64,000 nt of DNA, taken from Massalongia carnosa. Lineage: Eukaryota. The notes below the pieces were generated by a model. The model did not search any database and was not told the DNA's origin. It worked only from the letters and a program-made list of their open reading frames with translations. Made by a program: the position numbers and the translations under genes. Numbering within the stretch: the first letter of the stretch is position 1; every line of letters starts with the position of its first letter. Positions 2,840 through 10,179 of the stretch are shown piece after piece. The stretch covers positions 2,728,001 to 2,792,000 of the forward strand of contig OZ287067.1 of NCBI GenBank assembly GCA_965645245.1, read 5' to 3'.

Positions 2840-2890
2840 GATGTGGTTGAATAATAAATGGTTGATGATAGATGATAGAAATTTTTAAAA

Positions 2891-4036
2891 ATGCGTCATG
2901 GAGATGAAAAAAGACGAAACAGAGTCTATCAACACATATTAGTGATAGTAGATCGTTTAACGAAAAGACGATTATACGAACCACTAACCTCTCTCTCTAC
3001 TGATGAACTGATGGATGCGATGTCCAGGAGATTATTCTCCTCTTACGGATTTCCTATATCAACAGTCAACGATCGCGGTAGTCAACTAACCGCTCACTTA
3101 TGGAAAAGAGTTTGCGAAAGATACGGGGTGAGAATCAAATTTTCATCTGCACATCATCCCGAAACAGACGGTCAAACCGAAAACGCCAACAAGGTAATGA
3201 AAAATTATCTCCGAGCATACGTCAATTACACACAAGACAACTGGGTGGATTATCTTTCAGACGCAGAGTTTGCAGCCAACAATCATGTAAATGTAGCAAC
3301 GGGAATGACTCCATTCTTCGCAGACCATGGCTTCCACCCACGCTGTGGCATCGAACCACCAGGCACATACGAAGGAAAAGGAAAAGCAGAGATACTGCAT
3401 GCTGACAAAATCATAGAACGGCAAGAAGCCATGCGAACCCGGCTCCGAGATCAATTAGCCTGGGCTCAGGAAGAACAAACACGACACGCAAACAAAGGCC
3501 GTCAATCTCACCCCGAATACAAAATCGGGGACATGGTTTATGTAAACGCCAAGCACTTTGCTTCAGAAAGACCCAGCAGATCATTAAGCTTCAAGAACAT
3601 AGGACCATGGAAGATAATAAGAATTATCGACAATAAAGCATACGAATTAGAGATCCCGGATCAGTTAAAGAACGTCGGGCTTACCCCCATCTTTCATCCG
3701 TGGAAGCTACATCTCGCACCTTCCAACCCATTCCCAGGACAAGTCTTACCGCCTGGACCGCCCATAGCCATAACCGAAAACGACGAAGAGGAGGCCCACG
3801 AAGAATGGGAAGTCCTCGAAATAATAGACTGCCGCGAAACAAGAAAGTTCGGCGTGCAGTACAAAGCAACCTTCATTGGAAATTGGGATGAATGGAACGC
3901 GAACCCTTACTGGCAACCATGGACAGACTTCAAGAATTCAAAGGACAAAATCCTCCAATACCATCGAGAACATCCACAGAAACCCAAACCACCAGATGAT
4001 CTAACAAAAATAGATTATAATCAAGAATGGAGGTGA
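2891..4036 (+). CDS. Ty3/gypsy (chromovirus) integrase core plus chromodomain, lacking the N-terminal HHCC finger
   Basis: IVDRLTK, VNDRGSQ and HPETDGQTENAN give the D-D-E triad; IGPWKII resembles GPY/F; chromodomain EWEVLEIIDCR...YKATFIG...WQPWTDF. Confidence 0.9.
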   Translation: MRHGDEKRRNRVYQHILVIVDRLTKRRLYEPLTSLSTDELMDAMSRRLFSSYGFPISTVNDRGSQLTAHLWKRVCERYGVRIKFSSAHHPETDGQTENANKVMKNYLRAYVNYTQDNWVDYLSDAEFAANNHVNVATGMTPFFADHGFHPRCGIEPPGTYEGKGKAEILHADKIIERQEAMRTRLRDQLAWAQEEQTRHANKGRQSHPEYKIGDMVYVNAKHFASERPSRSLSFKNIGPWKIIRIIDNKAYELEIPDQLKNVGLTPIFHPWKLHLAPSNPFPGQVLPPGPPIAITENDEEEAHEEWEVLEIIDCRETRKFGVQYKATFIGNWDEWNANPYWQPWTDFKNSKDKILQYHREHPQKPKPPDDLTKIDYNQEWR

Positions 4037-4175
4037 GCCGCACCTGGAGCGTAGCTCCGGGTGCGGTCCATCGGATTTACAGTCCCGTGCCAAAAGTCTG
4101 CGGCCCAACCCGTGATTTTCGTGATTTCGCGTTTTCAACTCATCAACCCCCCATCTTCCACCTCATCATTTCACG

Positions 4176-5261
4176 ATGCTTCATGCTTCTTTGACCCCCA
4201 TAAGTGGTAATCGGCCTCGTAACACTGAATTGACGCCATATCAACATGGCATGATTGTTGGGGCCCAGGCGTTGGGGCACACACCGACCGAGATTGGGAA
4301 GACTCTTAATTTCACTAAACCGATCGTGCAGAGCACCATTCAGAAGCACTCAATTCGCAACGACGGCGTGTCTAAATCACGTTCTGGACGGCCTGAAGTG
4401 CTGTCAGAACGCGATCGACGTTATATCATCAAGCATGCACGAATCAATCCACGAATCACTTATGCACAAATCAAACTAGAAGTGGGGCTTGGCTGCAGTC
4501 GTACGACCATTTATCGGGCACTCAAACTGTATGGTTTAACCAACTGGGTGGCTAAAAAACGACCTTTATTGACGCCTGAGGTGGCCAAGAAACGATTGGA
4601 TAGGTGCTTGCTGCGGCGTGAGTGGACTTTTGAGCAGTGGTCAAGAGTTATATGGTCAGATGAGTGCTCGGTGGAAAAGGGGTCAGGAAAACAGCGTCAG
4701 TGGGTGTTCAGATTGCCGAAAGAAAAATGGAATAAAGAGATGATACAACCTGTCCCCAAAGGCAAAGGAGTCAGTGTCATGGTTTGGGCAGCTTTTTGGG
4801 GAGATGACAGGTCAGATCTTTACAAATTGGCTCGTGATTTTGCTGCGAAGAAGATGGGGTACTCGGCGAACTCATATCTGGAATTATTGAACGCTAATCT
4901 GCTTGGAAGTTGGCAACCGGGCCTTATTTTCATGCAGGATAACGCACCTATACATAAGGCTAAAAAGGGGATGGAATGGTTCAATGAGAACGGCATAGAG
5001 GTCATCGATTGGCCCCCCTATTCACCTGATTTAAATCCCATCGAGCACGTTTGGTATGTGCTCAAAAAGCTCGTCTATCAAGTCAACCCGAACATAGATT
5101 TGGTGATTGGCAGTGATGAAACTGTTCGTGAGGTACTTTGGAAAGCGTTAGAAGAAGCCTGGACGTTGATAGATGTGAAAATGATGAGGAGGTTAATAGA
5201 GAGCATGAATAGGAGGATAAAAGCGTGTATAGCGTCGGAAGGATGGTATACTAAATATTAA
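4176..5261 (+). CDS. Tc1 transposase, uninterrupted ORF
   Basis: N-terminal HTHs with RSGRP; catalytic motifs WSDE, MQDNAPIH, WPPYSPDLNPIEHVW. Confidence 0.95.
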   Translation: MLHASLTPISGNRPRNTELTPYQHGMIVGAQALGHTPTEIGKTLNFTKPIVQSTIQKHSIRNDGVSKSRSGRPEVLSERDRRYIIKHARINPRITYAQIKLEVGLGCSRTTIYRALKLYGLTNWVAKKRPLLTPEVAKKRLDRCLLRREWTFEQWSRVIWSDECSVEKGSGKQRQWVFRLPKEKWNKEMIQPVPKGKGVSVMVWAAFWGDDRSDLYKLARDFAAKKMGYSANSYLELLNANLLGSWQPGLIFMQDNAPIHKAKKGMEWFNENGIEVIDWPPYSPDLNPIEHVWYVLKKLVYQVNPNIDLVIGSDETVREVLWKALEEAWTLIDVKMMRRLIESMNRRIKACIASEGWYTKY

Positions 5262-5442
5262 AAATCAATTTTTGGGGGAATTCTTGTTTAGTAATCATTA
5301 TGTAAAGTTTCAAGACATTTCAGCAATCGTGACGTGGTTGATTGTTGATTGAATAGATGAGATGGTTCTATGTCACGTGAGGCCCCTGAGTCAAAGTAAA
5401 TTAAGAATCACCCTCTGAAAATTCTTTCCTCATCCACTTCTT

Positions 5443-5690
5443 CTCACTCGGCCTCATCCATCTCACTGACTCGTCGTCGACCCCACGTTGTCTCGGTGCC
5501 CCTACCTCGCTGTCAGTGCTTGCTGCTTTTCCTCACTCGGCCTCATCCATCTCACTGACTCGTCGTCGACCCCACGTTGTCTCGGTGCCCCTACCTCGCT
5601 GTCAGTGCTTGCTGCTTTTCCCATCTCACTGACTCGTCGTCGACCTCACGTTGTCCTCGGTGCCCCTACCTCGCTGTCGGTGCTTTTTCC
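5443..5690 (+). repeat. About 2.8 copies of an 89-bp tandem repeat in the retrotransposon leader
   Basis: Identical units start at 5443 and 5532; a 5'-shortened, slightly diverged third unit starts at 5621. Confidence 0.95.
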
Positions 5691-5692
5691 CA

Positions 5693-6706
5693 ATGACGAA
5701 CACCCGTTCCCAAAGCACCCCGATGGACGACATAGTCCCCGACTCCCAGGAGATTGTCGGATTGACGCAGGCCCAGTCCAATCAAATCTTCGCCCTACAA
5801 AAGAAGAAAGCCGAGGCAGAAGCGAAGGCGGCCGAGGCTGAGGCCAGAATTGCCGAGTCCAAGGCATTGGTCGCCGAGAAGGAGGTGGAAAAAATGCAGC
5901 TAGAAATCGACTGCATGCGCCGAGAATCTGACGCCCGAATAGCGGCCGTCATTCCTGCTGGCAAGCCGAGTCGTGTCGTCGGCGATGACGACGAGGACCT
6001 AGGTGAGATCCCTCTCGAAGTAAGAAGTATAGCACCCCGTTTCGCGGGCCTACCACAGGACGAGATCATCAAGATCTTTTCAAATAAATTCAAAGCCATC
6101 AACCTCTCCCGCCTCCGACACATGCACGGCATGCAATACGAGTCCTACAAGGATCAGGACCGCATCGGCATCGAAGACGGCGCCTTGAGGTTGAGAAAGG
6201 CATCCGGGACCTACAAAGATTTCGGAAAGACAGTTCATGACGTCTGGACAGAGAGCTTCATCAACTACACCTCGATCATGGTCAGTCTTTTCGGGAAATC
6301 GAGTCAACAGCTTCACGCCACCATGTCGGCATTCCACGGAAAAATCCTCACGCTGGCCAAGGTGTACGGGTGGCAGGAAGCAGTCCTCCCCCTCACCATC
6401 GAAACCCACACTCACATCATCGCGTCTCAGCCATCCGACGCATCCCAATGGAAAATGCCCGACGAATTCCAAGCTCGATTCTGCACCCCCCTCACAGTCC
6501 TACGCCGTCGCCGCTCACGATCCCCGCCGTCCCGGCGACCGACCCCGAGAGGAGACAGGGCCGATAGGGCCGAGAAGGCAGCGGGGGAAATCTGCGACAA
6601 GTACAACAGCGGCACCTGCACCTGGCCGTCGTGCTACCGACAGCACAAATGTAAATCGTGCGGCGCGGCTGGGCATGGCCAGAAGACATGCCCAACGAAG
6701 AAATAG
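5693..6706 (+). CDS. gag-like ORF1 of the YR retrotransposon
   Basis: N-terminal coiled coil; C-terminal CCCH finger followed by the CCHC knuckle CKSCGAAGHGQKTC. Confidence 0.85.
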   Translation: MTNTRSQSTPMDDIVPDSQEIVGLTQAQSNQIFALQKKKAEAEAKAAEAEARIAESKALVAEKEVEKMQLEIDCMRRESDARIAAVIPAGKPSRVVGDDDEDLGEIPLEVRSIAPRFAGLPQDEIIKIFSNKFKAINLSRLRHMHGMQYESYKDQDRIGIEDGALRLRKASGTYKDFGKTVHDVWTESFINYTSIMVSLFGKSSQQLHATMSAFHGKILTLAKVYGWQEAVLPLTIETHTHIIASQPSDASQWKMPDEFQARFCTPLTVLRRRRSRSPPSRRPTPRGDRADRAEKAAGEICDKYNSGTCTWPSCYRQHKCKSCGAAGHGQKTCPTKK

Positions 6707-6751
6707 GGGGTTGGTGCAGGAGGCAGTAGAATAGCTTCAATAGCTGAATTC

Positions 6752-8456
6752 ATGACGTCCCATCCCTGCTTACCTGCACCAATCAGACCAAATACAATCC
6801 CTTCGTTTCAACTCGTAGACGCATCTCGTCAGCGTTTGAAAGACAGCCCATCTCCCCTCGTACCGTCCGCATGGGCAACTCTACTTCAAGAGTATCCGGG
6901 CCCCCTCCGAGTCCATCTGCCCATGATCCTTCGTTTCGGAGTACAAATCGGATACGAAGGCCCCACAGACATCCTTCGGATCGAAAAAAATCTGACATCA
7001 GCGAATGAGGACCCGGAAACGATCGAGAATAAGCTCCAAGAGGACCTCAGGAAGGGCCGAGTCAGACGAATAGCCGCCCCGAGTCAGCCATTTGTGGCCT
7101 CCCCCCTCGGCTTGGTCCCGAAACATGACGGAGGATGGCGACGCATTCATCATCTGTCTCATCCCAATCAAACATCAGTCAACGACAACATTCCAGAAGA
7201 GGCATCCAAATTACAATACGCCAGACTCGACGACATTATTCAATTGATTTCTGTCAGCGGGCAAAGGTGCTGTCATAGTGAAAAGAGACGTCAAAGACGC
7301 CTTTCGAAACGTTCCCGTCGCACCTCATCATCAATGGCTTCTGGGTTTCGGATGGAATGACGAATTCTACACCGAGACATGCCTTTCGTTCGGACTGTCG
7401 ACGGCCCCGTTCATCTTCAATCTTTTTGCGGAAGGCTTTCATTGGATTTTGGAATCCTTTCTGCAATGGAGATTACATCACTATCTAGACGACTTCGTTG
7501 CAATTTTCCCATCCGAGACATCGTCAGAACGATTGCACCAAGAAACAAAAGCCTACAACATTCTCACCGACATTCTTGGCATCCCGAGAAACGACTCAAA
7601 AGACGCCGAGGGAACGACAGCGACAGTCTTCGGACTCGAGGTCGACACCATCAACAGTCTTATTCGTCTGCCAGCGGACAAGCTGGAAAAAGCGAGAATC
7701 ATCACTACAAAGGCACTAAACGAGACGACAATCAGCCTCGGCGACATGCAGTCAATAGCGGGCTTCCTAAGCTTCTGCGCACAGGCAGTCAAATTGGGCC
7801 GAGTCTTCTTACGATTATTCTGGAATTTTATAGCCTCATTTCCCTCGGGCAGTCATCGTCGGGTCAAAAGAAGAATTCCCACATGGGTCAGACAGGATCT
7901 CATCTGGTGGAACAAACTTCTAGTGGACTTCAACGGTATTGTCTTCTTCGAGACGTCAACACGAGACACGATCAAGGTGCATACGGATGCATGCCTCACG
8001 GGTCTCGGAGGCTATTTTCAACAAGACAACGAGCTCGTGAATCAAAAAAACGCATGTAGGGCCCGAGTCCTAGTCCTCAATCAGGAAGGATCACCGAGCA
8101 TAAACGTCCGAGAAGTCGAAGCTATCCTTCTAATCCTTCAGAAATGGGCGCCGACATGGCGACATCGACAGATCCTTGTCTTTACCGACAGCAACACAGC
8201 ATACACAGGATTCACGAATCTAACCCTCAAGGGACCGGCCAACGCGCCTCTACGAGAAATACTGTCCATAGCTGCAAAGTGGGACATCGTACTACGTTGT
8301 CAATGGATCAGTGGCACTTCCAATGGACTAGCAGATGCCCTGTCACGTTTTGATGATGAAAGATTGGCTAACTTTTGCCCTCATTGGCAGAACCCATACA
8401 ATTCGATGAACCTCCCTCCACCTACCTATCCTCCACACCAGGGTCAGCCCTGGTAA
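6752..8456 (+). CDS. Reverse transcriptase / RNase H with a +1 frameshift at 7263-7265
   Basis: LGLVPKHDGGWRRIHHLS, KRDVKDAF, LSFGLSTAP, HYLDDF; RNase H TDAC..E..TDS..NGLADALSR; deleting one A joins the two ORFs (SGQGAVIVKRDVKDAF). Confidence 0.9.
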
Positions 8457-9538
8457 AACGTCTCGTCTGGCACGGACACTCGGCGGACACGAGAAAAGGG
8501 TACGGGACGGCGATCGACTCATACGAGGCATTCTGCGCGACGACGGGACGCACGTCGTGGCCTGCAACAACCGAGTCCCTCGAGGAATGGCTAGCCGGTC
8601 GACTATACGGGGGCGGCACACCCAAGCAGGGAAAGATAAAACCAGAGACGGCAGCGAGCTACCTCGCCGGCCTCAGATCATACCATGTAGACCGAGGATA
8701 CGGCCTCACCCCATTCGAGGGGCCGAGACTTCAATTGATGCTGAAAGGGGGAAAAAGGATCTTTTCTCAGACAAAAAGAAGACGCCTACCCATTTCAAAA
8801 GAATTACTGACAAAAATCACCAGTATTCCCGCTCATTCGGCCGAAGACCTCAACATCGACGCGACATTCAAAGTTGCATGGGCAGGGTTCCTCAGACTCG
8901 GGGAAATCACCTACACTGTCGCTGATCGTAAGAAGACATCTTTTCAGAGATTGAAACCTACACGAGGTGACATCTCATTCGCCGAGAACGATCAATACGC
9001 GACATTACGTCTCAAAAGAAGCAAAACAGACACAAATCACTCAGGAGTTCAGATAGTGCTGGCAGCGACCAATGAGAGCACTTGCCCCGTGACAGCACTA
9101 CGGCGTCTTTTCAGAAATGATCCTCAGCCATCTACATCCCCGCTTTTTCGTCTCGGCACCGCATTCACCAGAGCCTCCGTCATAGCATCCCTGAAAAAGA
9201 GACTGATAGCCGTCGGCATCAACGACTCGGCATACTCGGGACACAGCTTCAGAAAAGGAGCAGCACAACACGCCGCCGACCACGGGATGCTGGATGAGAG
9301 TATTCAGAGACTCGGAAGATGGTCATCAAACGCGTTTCAGCTATACTTTCAGACGTCCCAGGCCTCACTATTCAATTTGAACCTCAGTTTTCAAAAAGGC
9401 ATCCCTCTAGCAGTCCCACGTGCTGTCGTCGCCGAGACGAATCCTACAAACTCCTACCCCTACTCAATTGGGCATTCCATTGGGCGTACAGGTCAACCAG
9501 GGCATCGATCCGGAGCGCCGCCGGGCACCTCCATCTAG
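8375..9538 (+). CDS. Tyrosine recombinase of the YR retrotransposon
   Basis: Catalytic set FLRLGE, KRSKTD, HSFRKG, GRWSSNAFQLY; overlaps the RT ORF. Confidence 0.93.
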   Translation: MPSLAEPIQFDEPPSTYLSSTPGSALVKRLVWHGHSADTRKGYGTAIDSYEAFCATTGRTSWPATTESLEEWLAGRLYGGGTPKQGKIKPETAASYLAGLRSYHVDRGYGLTPFEGPRLQLMLKGGKRIFSQTKRRRLPISKELLTKITSIPAHSAEDLNIDATFKVAWAGFLRLGEITYTVADRKKTSFQRLKPTRGDISFAENDQYATLRLKRSKTDTNHSGVQIVLAATNESTCPVTALRRLFRNDPQPSTSPLFRLGTAFTRASVIASLKKRLIAVGINDSAYSGHSFRKGAAQHAADHGMLDESIQRLGRWSSNAFQLYFQTSQASLFNLNLSFQKGIPLAVPRAVVAETNPTNSYPYSIGHSIGRTGQPGHRSGAPPGTSI

Positions 9539-10179
9539 ATCATCGCCGTCGGGCACTGCCGTCGGGCATCATCTATCGGATCGTTGAGCGTCAGCAGACG
9601 CCTCGGGCCTAGAAGATGAGGTTCTCACCTCAGCACCGACCCCGAGTCACGTGCCTAGGCCTGCCCGGGCTGACCTGTGTCGTTCCCATGCCCAATCAAA
9701 TTCAAGCATTCAAATCAATTCATCCAATTAAAAGCCCCCCCAGCGCAAGCGAAGGTAACGGCACCGATAAGGGTCATAGAATGATTGAAATGTTGGTGGG
9801 GTGCGGGGCCGCAGACTTTTGGCCTAGTACTGTACCTCGGTCGCACGGTTAAGCTAACTTAGGAAGAATGACTGTTCAACGCCTCCTTTCTCTCCCCATT
9901 CGAACTTTCTAAGTACGAATACGGTTGGCATATTCAGGTTTTTAAGTACATTCTCTATTCATGAAAGGCTTTTGATTGCTCATCACTGCCGACGTCCAAA
10001 GAACAGATCTGTAGCAAAGATGTGCTTCAAATCAACATCAAGGATATAACTGTCATCGGAGCTACTCGAGCTATTACATTGATAGACTCAGTCGGAAGTT
10101 CATGGCTGACAAAGCCAGTAGTCATCAGACGCCATAACGCATCCCATCTCGAGTTGACAAGATAAGCTCTGTCCTGAGG

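What the first reader, a model, noticed from the sequence alone, without database searches (positions are those of the whole stretch)
5357..9784. YR retrotransposon without classical terminal repeats; joined ends form a lox-like site
Seen: gag and YR ORFs are intact and RT-RH has a single 1-nt frameshift, yet I find neither long ITRs plus an internal complementary region (DIRS1 type) nor identical split direct repeats (Ngaro/PAT type). The ends share ATGA (5357-60, 9781-84). Joining them there gives GTCATAGAA-TGAGATGG-TTCTATGTC: 9-bp inverted arms (8/9 match) around an asymmetric 8-bp spacer. The restored empty site reads ...GATTGAATAGATGATTGAAATGTTGG..., compositionally continuous with the Tc1 3' UTR. 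Known: Cre/Flp-type tyrosine recombinases act on inverted arms flanking 6-8-bp spacers, and DIRS-order elements are thought to integrate through circles. Inference: this exposes the recombination site of a retro-YR and implies a route to a full-length circle that does not rely on long terminal redundancy.
Basis: partly seen in the sequence, partly recalled or inferred. Interest (0 to 1): 0.8.

Follow-up and report, generated by a model that had tools for sequence, protein, structure and literature searches.

The report
Shortened copy of a Ngaro retrotransposon
This fungal jumping gene lacks terminal repeats only because this copy lost them after insertion; its intact siblings have the ordinary Ngaro repeat layout, and their many insertion sites hint at the DNA site used by the element's recombinase.

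Summary
Of 71 recombinase-bearing loci of this family, 11 carry normal Ngaro split direct repeats (A1-ORFs-B1-A2-B2; A 176 bp, B 300 bp). The window copy is one of about 50 that lack A2-B2. All 11 other Tc1 copies examined show the empty site one base longer than proposed, so the element is 5358-9780, without target duplication or ATGA overlap.

Loss of A2-B2 most likely came by recombination between the B repeats: it rises with age, and in a sister family the favoured deletion flips with repeat length.

What survives: the natural junction is still an imperfect dyad (7/8; random joins 2.7%). Targets read AWAGA^A. Three sister families have terminal palindromes with compensatory changes, and all three families with enough sites show T at target +9. 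That the junction is a two-arm recombinase site is plausible, not shown.

The scan earlier noted Ngaro elements in another ascomycete (e1-2937310) but not these junction features. Verdict: new member of a known kind.

The parts
5358..9780 (+). YR retrotransposon copy, A1-ORFs-B form (A2-B2 missing)
   Evidence: ends fixed by 66 left and 70 right junctions of sibling copies and by the empty Tc1 allele
5358..5622 (+). A1 repeat (176 bp in siblings; here with a private 89-bp tandem duplication)
   Evidence: A1 equals A2 up to position 176 in full copies; duplication
5366..5374 (+). right arm of the junction dyad (A positions +9 to +17)
5353..5357 (+). target half-site ATAGA (Tc1 DNA), matching the last five bases of B
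   Evidence: target logo; empty allele
5693..6706 (+). gag-like ORF, 337 aa, C-terminal zinc knuckle (weak Pfam hit, E 0.023)
6707..8456 (+). pol (RT + RNase H, no methyltransferase), broken here by a private 1-nt insertion near 7248; open from the RT start motif to YLDD in 44 of 58 aligned copies
8372..9538 (+). tyrosine recombinase ORF overlapping the pol end
   Evidence: Pfam Phage_integrase E 0.005 and Phage_int_SAM_1 E 0.025, both below curated cut-off; motifs located
9481..9780 (+). B repeat, 300 bp (single copy here; B1 and B2 in full siblings)
9773..9780 (+). left arm of the junction dyad, the element's 3' end
9781..9789 (+). target bases +1 to +9 (Tc1 DNA); across the family A is favoured at +1 and T weakly at +9
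4078..9834 (+). host Tc1-like DNA transposon (TIRs 4078-4106 and 9806-9834, transposase frame 4125-5261) interrupted by the element

Best explanation
The window holds a young, dead-end copy of an Ngaro-type YR retrotransposon. SHOWN: complete members are A1-gag-RT/RH-YR-B1-A2-54 bp-B2; every insertion opens the element exactly at the B|A boundary seen at B1|A2, adds no target duplication, and prefers AWAGA^A. KNOWN MODEL (recalled for Ngaro; read for DIRS-1): the internal junction templates restoration and joining of the cDNA ends, so the intermediate's junction is a copy of B1|A2, and the YR recombines it with the target. INFERRED (about 0.65): after insertion into the Tc1, recombination between the identical B1 and B2 removed A2-B2, leaving A1-ORFs-B; recombination between A1 and A2 makes the reciprocal solo A-B units. 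Without B1|A2, and with a pol frameshift, this copy should not rebuild its ends, though gag and YR may act in trans. INFERRED (about 0.5): the YR binds CATAGA(A/T)-like arms flanking the cut in the junction, finds one good half-site plus a weak contact at +9 in the target, and needs no homology in the spacer, as Tn916-type integrases do.
For: 11 of 71 loci are A1-ORFs-B1-A2-B2, 50 A-ORFs-B (2 with truncated B), 1 A-ORFs-B with an inverted A-B unit inside A1, 9 partial. Window copy differs from full copy L004 by 4 substitutions, one 1-nt insertion and an 89-bp duplication. Eleven solo A-B loci. Full copies are 10 of 23 in the young clade and 1 of 33 among older copies (Fisher p 2.6e-4). Short-form ratio flips with repeat length: young family 1 (B 300, A 176) 16 A-ORFs-B: 4 solo; family 3 (B 148, A 356) 5: 13 (p 0.003; classes). 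No permuted A2-B2-A1-ORFs-B1 copy in 71 loci. Conservative insertion at empty sites for 4 family-1 and 3 family-3 loci. Target logo: -5 A 45/66, -3 A 54/66, -2 G 39/66, -1 A 59/66, +1 A 54/70, +9 T 33/70. No right junction shares more than 2 bases with the A start (70 sites). No methyltransferase hit in an intact 582-aa pol.
Against: A1 equals A2 and B1 equals B2 in nearly all full copies, so sequence cannot separate homologous recombination from YR-mediated excision or circle resolution. Short copies and solo units exist with zero differences from full copies, and the age trend within the young clade is not significant (p 0.13). Two pairs of short copies with different flanks share derived changes (L023/L025 identical; L097/L102 3 differences); both are inverted neighbours on one contig, so conversion is likely, but copying of short forms is not excluded. 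The family-1 dyad alone is only p about 0.03; +9 T in family 1 misses the Bonferroni line (p 4e-4 against 2e-4). Counts are lower bounds from capped searches and include a few segmental duplicates. Two loci within local tandem repeats (L006, L018) gave similar but not identical empty sites, offset by one base.
Confidence: 0.85

Rival explanations
1. The YR itself makes the short forms. A full circle carries two B|A junctions; YR recombination between them, before or after integration, yields an A-ORFs-B circle and an A-B minicircle that insert separately.
For: Short forms of zero divergence in two families; solo A-B units have normal target sites, one inserted inverted inside another copy's A1; SIRE of Trypanosoma equals A2-B2 of VIPER and its mobility is left open (PMC6681497).
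Against: Resolution gives the two products 1:1, yet the ratio flips with repeat length (p 0.003); full copies vanish with age; no permuted integrants in 71 loci.
Confidence: 0.2
2. One reading: an autonomous YR retrotransposon without terminal redundancy whose ends join through a shared ATGA into a loxP-like site.
For: About 50 of 71 loci have the repeat-less form; a dyad exists at the joined ends.
Against: Near-identical siblings have split direct repeats; the empty Tc1 site excludes the ATGA overlap; short copies are mostly terminal branches of a star-like tree; targets lack a second full arm.
Confidence: 0.03
3. The junction dyads are not protein-binding arms but a folded single-strand signal (RNA or cDNA) for end joining or priming; the family-1 dyad is chance.
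For: In families 2-4 the last five bases of B have a second covarying complement at A +22 to +26, and the sense strand folds into a long hairpin (DNA z -2.6 to -3.2). DIRS-1 cDNA is single-stranded and mostly linear (PMC7192593).
Against: Family 1 does not fold better than shuffles (DNA z 0.5, RNA z -1.4); target preferences, which cannot come from element folding, show arm-like patches on both sides of the cut in family 3. The hairpin and the arm model are not exclusive.
Confidence: 0.3

Closest known systems
Ngaro superfamily, order DIRS (fungal Ngaro of Muszewska et al. 2013, PMC3783388; complete Ngaro in Zymoseptoria tritici, PMC4502367)
   Same: gag, RT/RH, YR on one strand; no methyltransferase; A1-ORFs-B1-A2-B2 with identical repeats; internal repeats downstream of YR
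   Different: No structural difference found. Junction dyads, target consensus and the frequency of A-ORFs-B copies were not found described in the passages read.
Cafeteria burkhardae Ngaro solo AB repeats (PMC8547959) and SIRE = A2-B2 of VIPER (PMC6681497)
   Same: solo A-B units derived from split-direct-repeat elements, ascribed to recombination between repeats
   Different: Here the reciprocal A-ORFs-B product dominates in family 1; the window copy is that product.
DIRS1-like elements (PMC3266345, PMC7192593)
   Same: integration of a joined-end intermediate without target duplication, with short target similarity at the junction
   Different: No ITRs, ICR or methyltransferase here; target similarity lies on one side of the cut only and is not obligatory (7 of 66 left flanks lack even the adjacent base).
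Tn916/Tn1549 integrase sites (PMC5871717) and Starship Hephaestus TTAC(N7)A targets (PMC10104507)
   Same: YR acting on short imperfect inverted ends with little or no spacer homology; target consensus of a short motif plus one fixed downstream base
   Different: Those are DNA elements with tested enzymes; here the cut is inherited at one fixed position and nothing is tested biochemically.
loxP/Cre, FRT/Flp (recalled)
   Same: inverted arms around an asymmetric spacer
   Different: Arms here are 8 bp and imperfect rather than 13 bp; spacer 9 bp (or 7 with poorer arms); partner site has no matching spacer and only one good arm.

Membership tests
Ngaro | split direct repeats A1-ORFs-B1-A2-B2 | tested here: met
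   met by the family (11 of 71 loci); the window copy itself lacks A2-B2
Ngaro | gag, RT/RH and YR on the same strand, internal repeats downstream of YR | tested here: met
Ngaro | no methyltransferase domain | tested here: met
   no MT hit at E up to 1 in an intact 582-aa pol; RNase H match ends at 547
Ngaro | RT/RH groups with reference Ngaro in a tree | not tested
   no reference Ngaro sequences were available from a tool
PAT-like (Pat1, Toc, Kangaroo) | split direct repeats plus methyltransferase domain | tested here: not met
   no MT; definition from PMC4157794 passages, which also note a Pat1 lineage that lost MT
DIRS1-like | inverted terminal repeats with internal complementary region | tested here: not met
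loxP/FRT-type site | two near-perfect inverted arms around a 6-8 bp spacer | tested here: inconclusive
   7/8 arms around 9 bp; chance 2.7%
loxP/FRT-type site | spacer identity between partner sites | tested here: not met
   64 of 70 right flanks mismatch the A start at the first base
loxP/FRT-type site | binding and cleavage by the cognate recombinase | not testable with these tools
   needs biochemistry

The most novel reading that the evidence does not exclude
These Ngaro YRs integrate by a single strand exchange on a folded or half-site substrate, as integron integrases do, not by a full reciprocal reaction. The joined B|A ends form the site (terminal palindrome plus a covarying long hairpin in families 2-4, an off-centre dyad in family 1); one strand is swapped into a target half-site with a second contact at +9, and replication or repair finishes the job. 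It would explain why all 66 left and 70 right junctions show one crossover position and one inheritance pattern, why the element's inner inverted triplet sits two bases further out than the target's in families 2-4, and why copy L008 has a perfect B-end joint but a 28-bp target duplication and a trimmed A end.
Probability: 0.2. Interest if true: 0.7.

Novelty: new member of a known kind. Interest (0 to 1): 0.33.

Why it matters
The claimed new replication route is not there. The genome is still a useful natural experiment: four recently amplified YR families with many insertion sites give base-level junctions and target consensuses for an enzyme class whose specificity was described in 2020 as not yet investigated experimentally (PMC7192593, for DIRS-1). 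These define concrete substrates for a first in vitro test. It also warns annotators that most copies of such a family can lack the diagnostic repeats.

Tried and rejected
Internal degenerate copy of the junction within B (9611-9655): only 7-8-mer matches, not pursued as a miniature split repeat once real A2-B2 was found. Diagnostic A1/A2 or B1/B2 alleles to separate recombination from YR excision: repeats are identical in 9 of 11 full family-1 copies and 9 of 10 family-3 copies, so no test. Natural family-2 junction: none in the loci held; 5 of 6 extra stretches were solo A-B units, so that junction is inferred from the two ends. Folding of the B repeat halves and of the family-1 junction: no better than shuffles. 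Metagenome scan: 2 loci, neither with usable repeats (L189 not examined further). Protein search: 347 relatives at E up to 1e-20, none with an informative name among the 120 listed; cluster names could not be looked up. PDB: only Cre at E 0.87. Atlas: gag's nearest clusters are unnamed. Sequencing runs: no RNA holder listed; four contig sets laid on a full copy carried flanks seen in this same genome and gave no independent alleles or circle-specific joints. Assembly collapse as the cause of short forms: not tested directly; thought unlikely since full and short forms coexist in one assembly and ratios differ by family and age. No structure or complex prediction was run.
Full report
Setting. 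The window comes from a 52-Mb, 25-contig assembly. A neighbouring gene has fungal Zn2Cys6 and Fungal_trans_2 domains, so the host is a fungus; an ascomycete is likely (nearest gag cluster commonest in Ascomycota, weak) but not established. The element sits in the 3' non-coding part of a Tc1-like transposon.

Observation check. The ORFs are as described. The pol break is one extra base near 7248, private to this copy relative to L004; the frame is open across RT in 44 of 58 aligned copies. Within the window copy there is no ITR, ICR or split direct repeat.

The family has split direct repeats. A search of the own genome gave at least 33 near-identical copies, and a YR protein search about 80 matches at 87-100% identity plus about 38 at 38-39%. 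I examined 71 family-1 loci (30, 41; about ten more fragmentary matches were not fetched). Eleven are A1-ORFs-B1-A2-B2, 50 are A-ORFs-B (2 with truncated B), one is A-ORFs-B with an inverted A-B unit inside A1, and nine are partial. A is 176 bp, B 300 bp, with 54 bp between A2 and B2. Eleven loci are solo A-B units, about nine independent. This is the Ngaro layout (PMC3783388, Introduction and passages; PMC9210276 and PMC4157794, passages). Solo AB units are reported from Cafeteria Ngaros (PMC8547959, passages) and as SIRE in VIPER (PMC6681497, passages). A complete Ngaro family in an ascomycete is already on record (PMC4502367, passages); automatic counts also list Ngaro in Sporothrix (PMC9281073, passages).

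True ends. All 11 other Tc1 loci examined read GAATAGAATGATTG at the insertion point. The element therefore starts at 5358 and ends at 9780, with no duplication or loss of target. The same holds at three more family-1 and three family-3 empty sites; two further matches inside local tandem repeats were offset by one base and are uninformative. Insertion opens it at one fixed position.

Why this copy is short. Full copies make up 10 of 23 young copies (0-6 substitutions from L004) but 1 of 33 older ones (p 2.6e-4; two internally deleted copies left out). In family 3, where A is long (356 bp) and B short (148 bp), the commoner short form is the solo A-B (13 against 5), the reverse of young family 1 (16 against 4; p 0.003; an earlier run with 17 was a miscount). 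Both trends fit recombination between identical repeats after insertion. YR-mediated resolution cannot be excluded, since the repeats carry almost no diagnostic alleles, zero-divergence short forms exist, and the trend within the young clade is not significant (p 0.13). The tree is star-like; close pairs of short copies mostly share flanks, but L023/L025 and L097/L102 do not.

What is left of the lox-like idea. The natural family-1 junction has 8-bp arms matching 7/8 around 9 bp; random joins reach this in 2.7% of trials, 8/8 in 0.14%. Targets (66 left, 70 right flanks) read AWAGA^A with weak T at +9. The A at +1 is not the element's next base (T) but is the next base of the inverted right arm, which points to protein recognition rather than homology. 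Sister families, whose YRs are 38-39% identical to this one, add more. Family 3 ends in CGAACTAG and begins with CTAGTTCG, joined naturally at B1|A2; family 4 is the same but for one base; family 2 ends in CGAATTAC and begins with GTAATTCG (junction inferred). These are palindromes centred on the cut, with two compensatory changes between families 2 and 3. The family-1 register (-1..-3 with +10..+12) also pairs in families 3 and 4 (3/3) and family 2 (2/3), with different bases. Family-3 targets have conserved patches on both sides of the cut (-3 T 18/24; +8 T 20/36, +9 T 23/36, +10 A 23/36), and family-2 targets have T at +9 in 11 of 15. In families 2-4 the end of B has a second covarying complement at A +22 to +26, and the sense strand folds into a long hairpin (z -2.6 to -3.2 as DNA, 60 shuffles); family 1 does not. 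Families 2-4 are related, so these are not independent observations.

Mechanism. Most likely: transcript from A1 to B2, ends restored and joined on the B1|A2 template (Ngaro model recalled from Goodwin and Poulter 2004, not read; DIRS-1 model in PMC7192593 and PMC3266345, passages), YR insertion at the B|A boundary into a half-site target, later loss of A2-B2 by B1 x B2 recombination. No right junction shares more than two bases with the A start, and at most six bases of the B end are matched on the left, so spacer homology is not needed. That resembles Tn1549 integrase (PMC5871717, passages) and the TTAC(N7)A target of Hephaestus (PMC10104507, passages) more than Cre. A full reciprocal exchange across a mismatched spacer should leave two inheritance patterns; only one is seen, which hints at a single strand exchange. 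Copy L008, with a normal B-end joint, a 28-bp target duplication and an A end trimmed by about 12 bases, fits that but is one case.

Novelty. New member of a known kind. I found no description of junction dyads or two-sided target consensuses for Ngaro in searches, nor in earlier scan notes. [quoted passage not shown] An earlier scan note on another ascomycete reached the same family assignment.

Verdict. Headline refuted; residual junction and target features real, modest and testable. Interest 0.33.

Noticed in passing
window 6704-6760: gag ends in TAG and the pol frame continues in phase straight after the stop, followed by a G-rich stretch; stop-codon read-through (as recalled for gammaretroviral gag-pol) is possible, but an ATG at 6752 could also start pol.
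   Followed up: no
L008, both ends (G000 C13:391925-396181): Aberrant insertion: normal B-end joint, 28-bp target duplication, and an A end missing its first 12 bases, joined at short microhomology.
   Followed up: partly
L019 / L056 (G000 C11:812866-813399): A solo A-B unit sits inverted inside A1 of another family-1 copy, at a consensus-like target, without duplication.
   Followed up: partly
L113-L130, L132-L208: Three further Ngaro-type families in the genome (YR 38-39% identical). Family 3 is nearly invariant, with at least 26 B1-A2-B2 copies and 14 solo A-B loci among the 40 scored, so it amplified very recently.
   Followed up: partly
L001-L131 and L031-L042: Dozens of multi-copy elements stay 97-100% identical with open frames (YR, Tc1), so repeat-induced point mutation looks weak or absent in this fungus; not measured.
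   Followed up: no
window 9611-9655: Inside B, a short stretch echoes motifs from both element ends (AGATGAG, GCACCGA, GTCACGTG).
   Followed up: no
L023, L025, L030 (C4, C6): L023 shares its left flank with L030 on another contig but not its right flank, and is identical in sequence to the inverted neighbour L025: possible rearrangement or conversion between element copies.
   Followed up: no
window 2879-4036: Chromovirus-like Ty3/Gypsy integrase end (rve, SH3_Tf2) lies directly left of the Tc1; a third nested element.
   Followed up: no
run X2 laid on L076, place 1514: A contig ends in a sequence I recall as a template-switch cDNA adaptor, so this unlabelled run may be RNA-derived; not evidence of expression.
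   Followed up: no
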